In this document: piece by piece, positions 16,533-18,221 of the stretch | Layout of the letters: every line of letters begins with the position of its first letter | Position numbering within the stretch: the first letter of the stretch is position 1 | Source of the DNA: Candidatus Aenigmatarchaeota archaeon | GTDB lineage: Archaea; Aenigmatarchaeota; Aenigmatarchaeia; CG10238-14; SpSt-28 | Direction: 5' to 3' | Length of the DNA: 64,000 nucleotides | Assembly (NCBI GenBank): GCA_038733315.1 | Contig: JAVYPJ010000002.1 | Span: 84,571 to 148,570 of the forward strand | The notes under the pieces: generated by a model | Told to the model about the DNA's origin: nothing | Databases searched by the model: none | Seen by the model: only the letters and a program-made list of their open reading frames with translations | Program-made: the position numbers and the translations under genes

Positions 16533-18221
16533 ATGTATTGGAGAAGATTGGCTGATAGCGAGCTCTTTTATCCTCATCTCTACTTTTTTAAATTAGGTGC
16601 TATTGATTTAAAAGAATATGTATTAGAGAGGACGAAAAGTATTGATAGCGAAGCATATCTGAGAAATAAAGAAATTAAAATAATAGGAGCTAATTATGTT
16701 TTAAAAAAAGACAATAACGTTTATCTTGTAAAAGAAAATGGAGAAGAAGAAAGAATAGGAAGCTATGAATGGTGGAAGAGAGCTAAGGAATTTGAGTCGA
16801 AAAAAGTCTCAAAGATATATTCGGAAAAAAAGAAAAGCTGCGATTTAAATTGTGGCTCATTATGTGGTGCGCATAAAAACAAGACAGCTTTGTTAAATGT
16901 GGTCGTAACTAATAGATGTAATTTATCTTGCCCGTATTGTTTCTTTTATGCATCGGAATCAAATTTTGTTTATGAACCATCGATAGAAGAAATAGAAAAA
17001 ATGATTATTTCTGCAAAAGAGATTAACGGTTTTGTACCTCCTGTTCAGCTTACTGGCGGAGAGCCGACTTTAAGGAATGATTTGGATAAAATAATAAAAT
17101 GTGTCAAGTCTCTAAATTCTCCACATATACAGCTAAATACTAATGGAGTATTACCTGCTGTTAATTTTTATTATGATGCAGAATCTACTATAAAGGATTT
17201 AAAAAAACTTAAAAGAAGCGGTCTAAATACAATATACTTATCATTTGATGGTACAGATGCAAAAACTAATATAAAAAATTATTATGAATTCCCTCTTTTT
17301 CTCCAAGCATGTAGAGAGAGCGGAATAGAGAGCATAGTATTGGTGCCAACTATACATGCAGGTAATTTAAATGAGGTATGGAAAATAGTTAAAATTGCTG
17401 TAAAAAACTTTGATATAATTAGAGGGATAGTTTTTCAACCAATCTCTTTTGTTGGTGGTGCATCTAAAAGCAATAGAGAAAGATATAGAGCAACAATTTC
17501 AGATATTATAGAGGAATTATATCCAGTCGGTTTAGACATTAAAGATTTCTATCCAGTTTCAGCTATAGAAAGTTTTGCAGATATAGTTTCATCAGATAAA
17601 GATCATGTAACGTTTTATAACAATTCTTTATGCGGAATGGCAACTTACATAACTTACGATCAAAAAAATGATAAAATAATTCCTATAACTCATTATATAG
17701 ATGTCGATAGGTTATTAAAGGATTTAAATCTATTTAACTCTCTTATAGGAAAGTTTGTTTTCTTATTTAAATATTTATCGAATCCTTCTCTAATAGATAA
17801 TATAAAGAAATATGTTAAAATAGAAAGGACGCCCGACGGTAGTAATATAATGGAAATTATTAAAAATATAAGAGAAAAAGGAGACTACAACTCTTTGGGA
17901 GAGTTTCATAAAAGAGTAAGTTTTATAGGTATGATGCACTTTATGGATCCATATAACTATGATGTAGAAAGAGTAGAAAGATGCAATATACATTATGCTT
18001 CTCCAGATGGAAGAGTAATTCCATTTTGTGCATATAACGTTTTTCCAGAAATCTATAGAGACAAAATATTAAAGAAATACGCGCTCGATAAAGAAGCAGC
18101 TGAAAGGCTTATAAAAGAAGAAAAAGAAAATCGAAAAAAGGTTATAGAGTTTAGAAAGAATGAAAAAGTTAGGGAAAATGCAGAAAAGAAATATAAAGAA
18201 TGGCTTGGAGAAGTTATCTAA
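16533..18221 (+). CDS. tes: Radical SAM enzyme of the tetraether lipid synthase (Tes/GDGT-MAS, MJ0619-like) family
   Basis: CDLNCGSLCGAH auxiliary motif, NRCNLSCPYCF, QLTGGEPT, QLNTNG, YLSFDG, FQPISFVG, CGMATY, HFMDPYNYDVERVERCNIHY, IPFCAYN. Confidence 0.82.
   Translation: MYWRRLADSELFYPHLYFFKLGAIDLKEYVLERTKSIDSEAYLRNKEIKIIGANYVLKKDNNVYLVKENGEEERIGSYEWWKRAKEFESKKVSKIYSEKKKSCDLNCGSLCGAHKNKTALLNVVVTNRCNLSCPYCFFYASESNFVYEPSIEEIEKMIISAKEINGFVPPVQLTGGEPTLRNDLDKIIKCVKSLNSPHIQLNTNGVLPAVNFYYDAESTIKDLKKLKRSGLNTIYLSFDGTDAKTNIKNYYEFPLFLQACRESGIESIVLVPTIHAGNLNEVWKIVKIAVKNFDIIRGIVFQPISFVGGASKSNRERYRATISDIIEELYPVGLDIKDFYPVSAIESFADIVSSDKDHVTFYNNSLCGMATYITYDQKNDKIIPITHYIDVDRLLKDLNLFNSLIGKFVFLFKYLSNPSLIDNIKKYVKIERTPDGSNIMEIIKNIREKGDYNSLGEFHKRVSFIGMMHFMDPYNYDVERVERCNIHYASPDGRVIPFCAYNVFPEIYRDKILKKYALDKEAAERLIKEEKENRKKVIEFRKNEKVRENAEKKYKEWLGEVI

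What the first reader, a model, noticed from the sequence alone, without database searches (positions are those of the whole stretch)
16533..18221. Tetraether lipid synthase-like enzyme in a putative DPANN symbiont, lacking the N-terminal metal site
Seen: Tes/GDGT-MAS-type motifs are retained (C-x3-C-x3-C-x2-H auxiliary motif, radical SAM CxxxCxxC, CGMATY, HFMD Met, PFCAYN Tyr). The N-terminal CxxC...C-x-x-H rubredoxin-like ligands appear replaced (TKSIDSEAY; VKENGEEE). Established: Tes couples diether lipids into membrane-spanning tetraethers, and many DPANN lack lipid synthesis and take lipids from hosts. Inference: the cell may remodel host-derived archaeol into its own GDGT or macrocyclic lipids using a variant enzyme; the IscS/IscU pair in this window could supply the Fe-S clusters.
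Basis: partly seen in the sequence, partly recalled or inferred. Interest (0 to 1): 0.72.

Follow-up and report, generated by a model that had tools for sequence, protein, structure and literature searches.

The report
Tes lipid synthase lacking rubredoxin site
A hot-spring DPANN archaeon (Aenigmatarchaeota) really does carry a gene for the enzyme that fuses archaeal membrane lipids into membrane-spanning tetraethers, and it belongs to a branch of that family, apparently undescribed, that has lost one of the enzyme's four metal sites.

Summary
Window 16533..18221 (+) encodes a 562-aa radical SAM protein. It keeps the radical SAM motif, the three Cys plus Met of the C-terminal cluster, Tyr459 and an N-terminal Cys3-His motif. 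All four rubredoxin-like ligands of GDGT-MAS are gone: C9->D38, C12->A41, C33 deleted, H36->N69.

This is not a peculiarity of one gene or of DPANN. At least 96 protein clusters share it, all from uncultivated Aenigmatarchaeota, Bathyarchaeota, Thermoplasmata and a few other DPANN. In a tree built on the catalytic core alone they form one clade (200/200 bootstraps). They score 403-484 bits on NCBI's Tes model (cutoff 450), against 697-758 for canonical Tes.

The domain itself survives without the metal: hhalign 97%, predicted confidence (pLDDT) 93-97 for the domain, fold match to 7TOL TM 0.85.

The host contig is Aenigmatarchaeota from hot springs, and the gene has the same composition as its neighbours, so it is not host contamination.

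No lipid-pathway gene lies in the 64 kb. The rest of the genome could not be read, so the 'remodels host lipids' idea stays untested.

Some strains carry a Tyr235 stop allele.

Best reading: a working tetraether/macrocycle synthase of a new subfamily. No member has been assayed.

The parts
16533..18221 (+). Gene for a Tes/GDGT-MAS-family radical SAM protein, 562 aa, of the subfamily without rubredoxin ligands
   Evidence: ORF. NF045702 475.7 bits, cutoff 450. 7TOL E 6.4e-87. AlphaFold2 pLDDT 90, pTM 0.90. Foldseek 7TOM/7TOL E 5e-42, TM 0.84-0.86 normalised to the target.
16460..16532 (.). 73-bp A+T-rich intergenic spacer shared with the divergent gene 15794..16459 (-). Presumed promoter region.
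   Evidence: Read directly. No promoter test was run.
16533..16616 (+). N-terminal extension (residues 1-28) absent from most relatives and predicted disordered. It tolerates an in-frame 6-nt insertion in other strains.
   Evidence: Alignment. pLDDT below 50 for residues 1-21. AAAAGA inserted after 16609 in run X3, and 564-aa cluster members exist.
16617..16802 (+). Metal-free relic of the rubredoxin-like/zinc-ribbon domain (residues 29-90). D38 (16644-16646) stands for C9, A41 (16653-16655) for C12, a 3-residue gap for C33, and N69 (16737-16739) for H36.
   Evidence: hhalign against the canonical domain: probability 97.3%, E 2e-11. pLDDT 93-97. No PF23545 hit.
16839..16874 (+). Motif for the N-terminal auxiliary [4Fe-4S] cluster, C103-x3-C107-x3-C111-x2-H114. 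It has one residue more than the canonical spacing.
   Evidence: Ligand assignment comes from MJ0619 C73, C77, C80 and His (PMC9433317).
16917..16940 (+). Radical SAM cluster motif C129-x3-C133-x2-C136
   Evidence: Invariant in 160/160 aligned homologues. PF04055 E 4e-23.
17235..17237 (+). Codon for Tyr235 (TAC), invariant in the family. It reads TAA (stop) in a natural allele of a closely related strain.
   Evidence: Split products of 236 aa plus 292/293 aa. L084 aligned to the window. The codon is intact in the contigs of runs X1-X4.
17631..17648 (+). CGMATY: the first Cys (C367) of the C-terminal auxiliary [4Fe-4S] cluster
   Evidence: Invariant Cys in 160/160.
17937..17948 (+). HFMD: Met471, the equivalent of the labile cluster ligand Met439 of GDGT-MAS
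   Evidence: Within the subfamily this position is M in 44 and Q in 24 sequences.
17982..18038 (+). C484 and PFCAYN (C499, Tyr501): the remaining Cys ligands of the C-terminal cluster and the equivalent of Tyr459
54049..55700 (+). IscS-like cysteine desulfurase (54049..55215) and IscU/NifU-N scaffold (55221..55700). General Fe-S assembly; context only.
   Evidence: PF00266 E 7e-88. PF01592 E 3e-43.

Best explanation
The gene encodes a functional member of a distinct, so far uncharacterised subfamily of the tetraether synthase (Tes/GDGT-MAS) radical SAM family, resident in the genome of a hot-spring Aenigmatarchaeota archaeon.

Inferred from GDGT-MAS: it uses the radical SAM [4Fe-4S] cluster to cleave two SAM per bond, abstracts H from the terminal carbons of two saturated phytanyl chains, parks the first substrate radical on the C-terminal [4Fe-4S] cluster, and forms the C-C bond. 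That turns archaeol-type diethers into GTGT/GDGT tetraethers and/or macrocyclic archaeol.

What differs is the surface N-terminal module. The rubredoxin-like domain is kept as a folded, conserved, metal-free domain. The adjacent N-terminal [4Fe-4S] site has a rearranged first ligand. Electrons therefore probably enter through that cluster directly from a soluble donor, rather than through a mononuclear iron (inference).

Shown here: family, fold, ligand pattern, the clade, the organism, and chromosomal residence. Inferred: activity, product, electron route, and where the substrate lipid comes from.
For: - Family and fold.
- All catalytic ligands are invariant in 68/68 subfamily members: the radical SAM CxxxCxxC, three C-terminal Cys, and N-cluster C77, C80 and His.
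- The window protein also keeps Met471 and Tyr501.
- The subfamily is monophyletic on the catalytic core alone, 200/200 neighbour-joining bootstraps.
- The N-domain is homologous to the canonical one. It is as conserved within the subfamily as in canonical Tes (mean pairwise identity 0.50 against 0.47) and is confidently folded in the model.
- The third ligand of the N-cluster moves about rather than disappearing: Cys at -9/-10/-11, Asp at -10, or an extra Cys in 'CGLCSCH'. This suggests the cluster is retained.
- The gene is native. It sits on a 288-kb contig among Aenigmatarchaeota housekeeping genes. Its GC is 29.8% and GC3 21.0%, against 27.6+/-3.2% and 19.9+/-2.9% for its neighbours.
- It is intact in the contigs of four hot-spring runs (X1-X4) and in four full-length cluster members (562-564 aa). 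In-frame indels only. In the X1 haplotype dN/dS is about 0.4 and no ligand residue is changed.
- A relative (L079) has archaeal mevalonate-pathway-type genes 5-10 kb downstream.
- M439A and Y459F/L variants of GDGT-MAS stay active, which shows the core chemistry tolerates peripheral change (PMC9433317).
Against: - No member of the subfamily has been assayed, and all ~96 clusters come from uncultivated archaea.
- The subfamily scores 403-484 bits on the Tes equivalog model, against 697-758 for canonical Tes. 5 of the 13 members scored, the window protein among them, fall below the 450 cutoff; the window protein passes by only 26 bits.
- A second Tes homologue of M. acetivorans (MA_1114) made no GDGT on heterologous expression (PMC8941075), so homology alone does not fix the product.
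- A nonsense allele (Tyr235 stop) occurs in related strains, so the gene is dispensable at least for some.
- The spacing of the N-cluster motif is altered.
- No lipid gene lies within 64 kb.
- There is no expression evidence; the metatranscriptomes held no reads of this organism.
Confidence: 0.62

Rival explanations
1. Same fold and radical chemistry but a different job. The subfamily would be a functional paralogue: for instance, it makes only macrocyclic archaeol, couples other lipid tails, or modifies an existing tetraether, rather than being a GDGT synthase.
For: - The clade is clearly separate (200/200 bootstraps).
- There is a gap of more than 200 bits to canonical Tes on NF045702.
- The N-terminal redox module is altered.
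- MA_1114 is a precedent: a Tes homologue that gave only traces of macrocyclic archaeol (PMC8941075).
- NCBI names the members 'radical SAM protein', not Tes.
Against: - All substrate-side catalytic ligands are conserved, and the fold matches over about 520 columns.
- No canonical Tes was seen beside it in the Aenigmatarchaeota or Bathyarchaeota genomes hit. The one apparent second copy (L073) is a 585-bp contig at 1.15x coverage in a bin whose Tes-bearing contig is at 7.6x, so it is probably contamination.
- That scan was not exhaustive.
Confidence: 0.22
2. A decaying relic. The enzyme is losing cofactors and function in a host-dependent lineage that takes finished lipids from its host.
For: - Loss of one metal site and altered spacing of a second.
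- A Tyr235 stop allele assembled in an NCBI MAG and several Logan contigs.
- dN/dS of about 0.4, which is only moderate constraint.
- Aenigmarchaeota are reported to lack the mevalonate pathway (PMC8407114).
Against: - The ligand loss is old and shared by ~96 clusters in several phyla with free-living members. Catalytic residues are 100% conserved and the N-domain is itself conserved.
- The window allele and four full-length cluster members (562-564 aa), together with the contigs of runs X1-X4, are intact.
- The stop allele is otherwise nearly identical to full-length alleles, so it is recent.
Confidence: 0.12
3. The gene belongs to a host archaeon and reached the DPANN bin by mis-assembly or mis-binning, as Zeng et al. 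suggested for DPANN Tes hits.
For: General caution from PMC8941075. The nearest non-DPANN relatives are Bathyarchaeota and Thermoplasmata.
Against: - The gene lies inside one 288-kb contig between genes whose best matches are Aenigmatarchaeota.
- The same gene order is seen in independent assemblies (L084).
- GC and GC3 are typical of the window, whereas the Bathyarchaeota and Thermoplasmata loci have 40-44% GC.
Confidence: 0.02

Closest known systems
GDGT-MAS (MJ0619, Methanocaldococcus jannaschii; PDB 7TOL/7TOM)
   Same: - Radical SAM core, C-terminal [4Fe-4S] with 3 Cys plus Met, the Tyr459 equivalent, and an N-terminal Cys3-His cluster motif.
- Overall fold: Foldseek E 5e-42, TM 0.84-0.86 normalised to the target, 34% identity over about 520 columns.
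   Different: - All four ligands of the rubredoxin-like iron (C9, C12, C33, H36) are absent, with a 3-residue deletion at C33.
- One-residue insertion in the N-cluster motif.
- A 28-residue N-terminal extension.
Validated Tes proteins (MA_1486, Maeo_0574; Saci_0703 family), i.e. NCBIfam NF045702
   Same: It passes the curated equivalog cutoff (475.7 against 450) over profile positions 16-484 of 486.
   Different: - Canonical members score 697-758 bits, the subfamily 403-484.
- The first 15 profile positions, which hold the CxxC knuckle, do not align.
- The sequences of the validated proteins themselves were not available here, so they were not placed in the tree.
MA_1114, the second Tes homologue of Methanosarcina acetivorans
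   Same: A Tes-family protein whose activity differs from the main Tes: no GDGT, only traces of macrocyclic archaeol (PMC8941075). It is a precedent for functional divergence in the family.
   Different: Its sequence and ligand status could not be checked here. Whether it belongs to this subfamily is unknown.
Canonical Tes homologues of other DPANN (Iainarchaeota, Micrarchaeota, Nanoarchaeota MAGs)
   Same: Tes-family genes in reduced DPANN genomes. Already noted by Zeng et al. 2022.
   Different: Most keep CxxC-x20-CxxH and PF23545 and fall outside the ligand-less clade.
GMGT synthase Gms
   Same: A lipid C-C bond-forming radical SAM enzyme with three [4Fe-4S] clusters and no rubredoxin domain (PMC13459092).
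   Different: Gms is a SPASM-type enzyme resembling SuiB, in a different similarity-network group from Tes (PMC11186832). The window protein's only close structural match is GDGT-MAS.

Membership tests
Tes / GDGT-MAS (NCBIfam NF045702 equivalog) | Whole-protein HMM score at or above the curated cutoff (450 bits) | tested here: met
   475.7 bits, E 1.5e-142. The margin is small: canonical Tes score 697-758, and 5 of the 13 subfamily members scored (the window protein among them) fall below the cutoff.
Tes / GDGT-MAS | Radical SAM CX3CX2C cluster motif | tested here: met
   C129, C133, C136, invariant in 160/160 homologues.
Tes / GDGT-MAS | C-terminal auxiliary [4Fe-4S] site: three Cys plus the labile Met439 | tested here: met
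   C367, C484, C499 and Met471 align with the MJ0619 ligands.
Tes / GDGT-MAS | Conserved Tyr459 next to the substrate terminus | tested here: met
   Tyr501 in PFCAYN.
Tes / GDGT-MAS | N-terminal auxiliary [4Fe-4S] site C73-x3-C77-x2-C80-x2-His | tested here: inconclusive
   Three Cys plus His are present, but spaced C-x3-C-x3-C-x2-H. In 50/68 subfamily members the first Cys is missing, usually replaced by Asp. Cluster binding cannot be judged from sequence.
Tes / GDGT-MAS | Rubredoxin-like mononuclear iron site C9-x2-C12-x20-C33-x2-H36 (Pfam PF23545 Zn_ribbon_HMPTM) | tested here: not met
   D38, A41, a gap and N69 stand at the four positions. There is no Cys in residues 1-102 and no PF23545 hit. 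The domain fold is retained.
Tes / GDGT-MAS | Four-domain fold of 7TOL/7TOM | tested here: met
   Foldseek E 5e-42, TM 0.84-0.86 normalised to the target, 520-522 columns of a 493-498-residue target. The model has pLDDT 90.
Tes / GDGT-MAS | Makes GDGT, GTGT or macrocyclic archaeol from archaeol-type lipids | not testable with these tools
   Needs expression and lipid analysis. No subfamily member comes from a cultured organism.
Ligand-less Tes subfamily (defined here) | Groups with the D/x/gap/N sequences in a tree built from the catalytic core only | tested here: met
   A clade of 68 sequences, 200/200 neighbour-joining bootstraps, with no ligand-bearing sequence inside it. 30 more members were found from a Thermoplasmata query.
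Candidatus Aenigmatarchaeota (DPANN) | Housekeeping markers on the same contig match that phylum | tested here: met
   aIF5B is 99-100% identical to three NCBI Aenigmatarchaeota MAG proteins, and every named top-120 hit is from that phylum. S17, L14, the AP endonuclease and RNR match Aenigmatarchaeota MAGs best.
Host-dependent DPANN without lipid synthesis | Genome lacks the mevalonate pathway, GGGPS, DGGGPS, CarS | not testable with these tools
   Only 64 kb of the genome is visible, and none of these genes is in it. The window's own proteins cannot be looked up. The literature says the phylum lacks the mevalonate pathway but has G1PDH and phospholipid genes (PMC8407114).
GMGT synthase (Gms) | SPASM-type radical SAM resembling SuiB, in a separate similarity-network group from Tes | not tested
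   No Gms sequence was at hand. Indirectly unlikely: GDGT-MAS is the only close structural match, and SPASM enzymes come far behind (PMC11186832).

The most novel reading that the evidence does not exclude
A natural, phylum-spanning lineage of tetraether synthases works without the rubredoxin-like iron, and with a re-ligated N-terminal cluster. That would show the mononuclear iron is dispensable for sp3-sp3 coupling and point to a different electron entry route. In hot-spring Aenigmatarchaeota, which as a phylum lack isoprenoid synthesis, this enzyme would convert acquired diether lipids into the cell's own tetraether monolayer. It would be a DPANN symbiont that remodels rather than merely borrows its membrane, with the trait still polymorphic (Tyr235 stop allele) in nature.
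Probability: 0.25. Interest if true: 0.75.

Novelty: new variant of a known kind. Interest (0 to 1): 0.52.

Why it matters
1. Enzymology. [quoted passage not shown] A conserved natural subfamily that has dropped the iron site is a ready-made experiment on that question.

2. Lipid biomarkers. Surveys that assign GDGT producers by Tes homology or by curated cutoffs will treat this subfamily inconsistently, because it straddles the NCBI cutoff and is named only 'radical SAM protein'. It sits in Bathyarchaeota and Thermoplasmata, groups whose contribution to sedimentary GDGTs is debated.

3. DPANN biology. Contig-level evidence shows that a Tes-family gene is native to an Aenigmatarchaeota genome. 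This answers the contamination caveat of Zeng et al. for at least this lineage, and makes testable the idea that a symbiont remodels lipids it has acquired.

Tried and rejected
- Look-up of the window's own proteins on their contig, to read beyond the window, failed. The genome-collection scan did not return the window's genome. The lipid-pathway inventory of the genome could therefore not be made.
- Three metatranscriptomes from the study that holds the organism's DNA gave no reads on 12800-20300, not even on the thermosome gene. This says nothing about expression.
- An exhaustive search with the 88-residue N-domain alone found only 6 proteins. It was too insensitive to size the subfamily.
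- Laying contigs on a 181-base stretch returned nothing. A 701-base stretch worked.
- L073, an apparent second Tes copy in the Aenigmatarchaeota SKYB92 bin, was rejected as evidence of paralogy. It is a 585-bp contig at 1.15x coverage, of canonical TACK type.
- Gene neighbourhoods of subfamily members (L001, L079, L080, L081, L083) show no conserved partner such as a ferredoxin or rubredoxin gene. Only L079 has isoprenoid-pathway genes nearby.
- The weak Pfam hit to MCP-like_PDC_1 in the N-terminus (18-20 bits, below the cutoff of 27) was dismissed as chance.
- TrsS (220 bits against a cutoff of 490) and MoaA-type models are only superfamily-level matches.
- Literature searches found no description of a Tes lacking the rubredoxin ligands. 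The library is incomplete, so this is not proof of absence.
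Full report
**The observation**

The window holds a single ORF at exactly the stated coordinates, 16533..18221 on the + strand, 562 aa, starting with ATG. A 73-bp A+T-rich spacer separates it from a divergent gene.
- C103-DLN-C107-GSL-C111-GA-H114
- C129-NLS-C133-PY-C136
- CGMATY (367-372)
- HFMD (Met471)
- C484
- PFCAYN (C499, Tyr501)

Pfam sees only the radical SAM domain. NCBI's equivalog model for tetraether lipid synthase Tes (NF045702) matches at E 1.5e-142 and 475.7 bits against a curated cutoff of 450, over profile positions 16-484 of 486. 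The only close solved structure is GDGT-MAS of M. jannaschii (7TOL/7TOM), at E 6.4e-87 with the single sequence and 1.3e-159 with a family profile.

**The missing ligands**

The structure paper defines four metal sites (PMC9433317):
- a rubredoxin-like iron bound by C9, C12, C33 and H36
- an N-terminal [4Fe-4S] bound by C73, C77, C80 and a His
- the radical SAM cluster
- a C-terminal [4Fe-4S] with the labile Met439

Aligned to MJ0619, the window protein has D38 for C9, A41 for C12, a three-residue deletion where C33 sits, and N69 for H36. There is no cysteine in its first 102 residues. Pfam's model of this module, PF23545 Zn_ribbon_HMPTM, hits canonical Tes at E 1e-19 to 1e-20 and does not hit the window protein. 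One correction is needed: the N-cluster motif has one residue more than the canonical C-x3-C-x2-C-x2-H.

**It is a subfamily, not a one-off**

In the 5.8-billion-protein search, the 65 nearest clusters after the protein's own (44-58% identity) all lack PF23545 and the CxxC...CxxH pattern. From the next hit onward (43% identity or less) nearly all carry both.

I built a neighbour-joining tree from the catalytic core only (residues 116-520, 401 columns, 160 sequences), so that the N-terminus could not drive the result. All 68 ligand-less sequences form one clade with no ligand-bearing sequence inside it, supported by 200 of 200 bootstraps.

A second search from a Thermoplasmata member added 30 more clusters, all ligand-less, followed by a sharp drop to canonical proteins.

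Named members are MAGs of Aenigmatarchaeota, Bathyarchaeota, Thermoplasmata/Thermoplasmatota, one 'Micrarchaeota' and one 'Diapherotrites'. None is from a cultured organism. By contrast most other DPANN homologues (Iainarchaeota, Micrarchaeota, Nanoarchaeota) keep the four ligands.

On NF045702 the subfamily scores 403-484 bits, and 5 of the 13 members scored, the window protein among them, fall below the cutoff. Six canonical Tes score 697-758. This explains why NCBI calls the members just 'radical SAM protein'.

**What is conserved and what is not**

| Site | Ligand-less clade (68 sequences) |
|---|---|
| Radical SAM cysteines | invariant |
| Three C-terminal cluster cysteines | invariant |
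| N-cluster C77, C80, His | invariant |
| Met439 position | Met 44, Gln 24 |
| Tyr459 position | Tyr 62, Phe 6 |
| C9 position | Asp 62 |
| H36 position | Asn 56 |
| C33 position | deleted in all |

The first N-cluster cysteine (C73) is missing in 50 of 68. It is usually replaced by Asp at the same distance from the His. In other members a Cys sits one residue to either side, or an extra Cys appears in 'CGLCSCH'. A ligand that shifts position like this looks like a cluster that is kept, not lost. That is an inference.

The N-domain profile of the clade aligns to the canonical one with 97.3% probability, E 2e-11. It is as conserved within the clade as the canonical domain is among canonical proteins (0.50 against 0.47 mean pairwise identity).

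AlphaFold2 gives pLDDT 90 and pTM 0.90 overall, and 93-97 for residues about 30-90. Only residues 1-21 and the cluster-binding loop have low confidence. Foldseek matches 7TOM/7TOL over about 520 columns with TM 0.84-0.86 normalised to the target. The rubredoxin-like domain thus survives as a metal-free structural domain.

**The organism and whether the gene is native**

The window's aIF5B is 99-100% identical to three NCBI MAG proteins named Candidatus Aenigmatarchaeota. Every named hit among the top 120 belongs to that phylum. S17, L14, an AP-endonuclease-like gene and the ribonucleotide reductase also match Aenigmatarchaeota MAGs best.

All public runs that hold the Tes stretch are hot-spring metagenomes from several studies.

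The gene lies inside a 288-kb contig. Its GC (29.8%) and GC3 (21.0%) are typical of the window's genes (27.6+/-3.2% and 19.9+/-2.9%), while the Bathyarchaeota and Thermoplasmata loci have 40-44% GC. The same gene order recurs in independent assemblies.

[quoted passage not shown] The clade's mixed taxonomy fits the reported gene transfer into Aenigmarchaeota from Euryarchaeota and Bathyarchaeota (PMC8407114). The direction of transfer was not resolved.

**Surroundings**

I scanned essentially every ORF of the window. The window is housekeeping:
- cell division and chaperones: FtsZ, SepF, prefoldin, thermosome
- replication and repair: Orc1/Cdc6, SMC/ScpA, Mre11/Rad50
- translation: aIF5B, five aminoacyl-tRNA synthetases, ribosomal proteins
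- metabolism: class II-type ribonucleotide reductase, glutamate dehydrogenase, phosphomannomutase, deoxyhypusine synthase
- Fe-S assembly: IscS/IscU

There is no prenyltransferase, GGGPS, CarS, GGR, G1P dehydrogenase or mevalonate-pathway family.

The immediate neighbours of Tes are a 221-aa protein of unknown function, a NUDIX hydrolase, a HAD phosphatase and an endonuclease IV-like protein. Nothing ties them to lipids. IscS/IscU lie 36 kb away and are general Fe-S machinery.

The literature says Aenigmarchaeota lack the mevalonate pathway but do have G1P dehydrogenase and phospholipid-synthesis genes (PMC8407114). That would fit either uptake of isoprenoid precursors or uptake of finished lipids.

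In one relative (L079), genes of the archaeal mevalonate-pathway type (two AA_kinase, UbiD, AcnX large and small subunits) lie 5-10 kb downstream of its Tes. Reading these as pathway genes rests on my own knowledge of that pathway.

**Population evidence**

Contigs from four hot-spring runs (X1-X4) carry the intact gene. The X1 haplotype has 38 listed differences: 21 change the amino acid and 13 codons change silently. That gives dN/dS of about 0.4, and no ligand residue is touched. An in-frame 6-nt insertion occurs in the N-terminal extension.

However, the protein's 90% cluster also holds split products of 236 and 292/293 aa, from an NCBI MAG and several Logan assemblies. In L084 the cause is TAC to TAA at window 17235-17237, a stop at the family-invariant Tyr235. 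The gene is thus under constraint but can be lost in some strains.

**How it most likely works**

By homology with GDGT-MAS (PMC9433317):
1. Two SAM are cleaved per bond.
2. The 5'-deoxyadenosyl radical abstracts H from a terminal carbon of a saturated phytanyl chain.
3. The first radical is stored as a C-S bond on the C-terminal cluster.
4. A second radical attacks, giving the biphytanyl chain and hence GTGT/GDGT or macrocyclic archaeol.

All residues on that side are present here. The difference is at the surface N-terminal module. With no mononuclear iron, reducing equivalents presumably reach the N-terminal cluster directly from a ferredoxin-type donor (inference).

A tetraether monolayer is plausible for a hot-spring organism. 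Whether the substrate is home-made or taken from a host is open.

I put 0.62 on a working tetraether/macrocycle synthase, 0.22 on the same chemistry with a different product or substrate, 0.12 on a decaying relic, and 0.02 on contamination.

**Novelty and interest**

Tes in DPANN MAGs is known. That Gms lacks a rubredoxin domain has been remarked on (PMC13459092). I found no description of a Tes lineage without the rubredoxin ligands.

I rate it a new variant of a known kind, of moderate interest. It is useful to radical SAM enzymologists as a natural deletion of a cofactor of unknown role. It is useful to lipid-biomarker work because the subfamily sits in Bathyarchaeota and Thermoplasmata and straddles annotation cutoffs. 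It is useful to DPANN biology because the gene is demonstrably native.

Noticed in passing
window 17235-17237; locus L084 1637-3331: Closely related hot-spring strains carry a natural nonsense allele of this gene (TAC to TAA, a stop at Tyr235). It splits the product into 236 aa plus 292/293 aa. It was assembled in one NCBI MAG (MEM7818160.1/MEM7818159.1) and several Logan contigs. The contigs of runs X1-X4 carry the intact codon.
   Followed up: yes
window 61800-62849 (+): A second radical SAM protein, 349 aa, with a Cys-rich C-terminal part (SPASM/twitch-like). Its best NCBIfam hit is the PTO1314 family at only 67 bits against a cutoff of 306. Function unknown. Whether it modifies lipids was not examined.
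   Followed up: partly
window 14781-14874, 26926-27023, 31354-31462: Three tRNA genes are 94-109 nt long, probably with introns. ARAGORN mislabels two of them ('tRNA-???' and tRNA-His with anticodon atg) and misses the third, which Rfam finds.
   Followed up: no
window 10706-12103 (+): A secreted or membrane-anchored protein with a DUF2341 domain and three nearly identical RCC1-type repeats ('[17 protein letters not shown]...GQLGDGTT...'). It could be a cell-surface or host-contact protein. In the sister strain (L082) the region is called as a 459-aa DUF2341 gene followed by a separate 221-aa gene with an IgGFc_binding domain.
   Followed up: no
locus L079 16537-21647: In a relative with a ligand-less Tes (GCA_054474475.1), two AA_kinase genes, a UbiD-family gene and AcnX large and small subunit genes lie 5-10 kb downstream. 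This looks like the archaeal-type mevalonate pathway. Superoxide reductase, rubrerythrin and peroxiredoxin genes lie directly next to its Tes.
   Followed up: partly
loci L001/L002, L005, L006, L081: In Aenigmatarchaeota SKYB92 and in several Bathyarchaeota the ligand-less Tes lies within a few kb of the S17-L14-L24-S4e-L5 ribosomal protein cluster. In the window the S17/L14 genes are 43 kb away (61063-61793). This may be a trace of shared ancestry or joint transfer.
   Followed up: no
locus L073 (whole, 585 bp): The Aenigmatarchaeota SKYB92 bin contains a 585-bp contig at 1.15x coverage that encodes the C-terminus of a canonical (TACK-like) Tes. It is probably a binning contaminant, and an example of the artefact Zeng et al. 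warned about.
   Followed up: yes
proteins P0271, P0273, P0278-P0280: Some Thermoplasmatota members of the subfamily have Pro instead of Asp at the C73 position and at the same time gain a Cys right before the His ('CGLCSCH'). This looks like a compensatory relocation of a cluster ligand.
   Followed up: partly
window 7921-9051 (-) and 9121-10221 (+): Two divergently transcribed class I tRNA synthetase genes of the Trp/Tyr family sit side by side, followed by a conserved 120-aa ORF of unknown function (10269-10631). That ORF is 46% identical to the gene just upstream of Tes in SKYB92.
   Followed up: no
window 27079-31311 (+): An Mre11-like phosphoesterase, a Rad50-like ATPase (782 aa) and a second small metallophosphoesterase form one co-directional block.
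   Followed up: no
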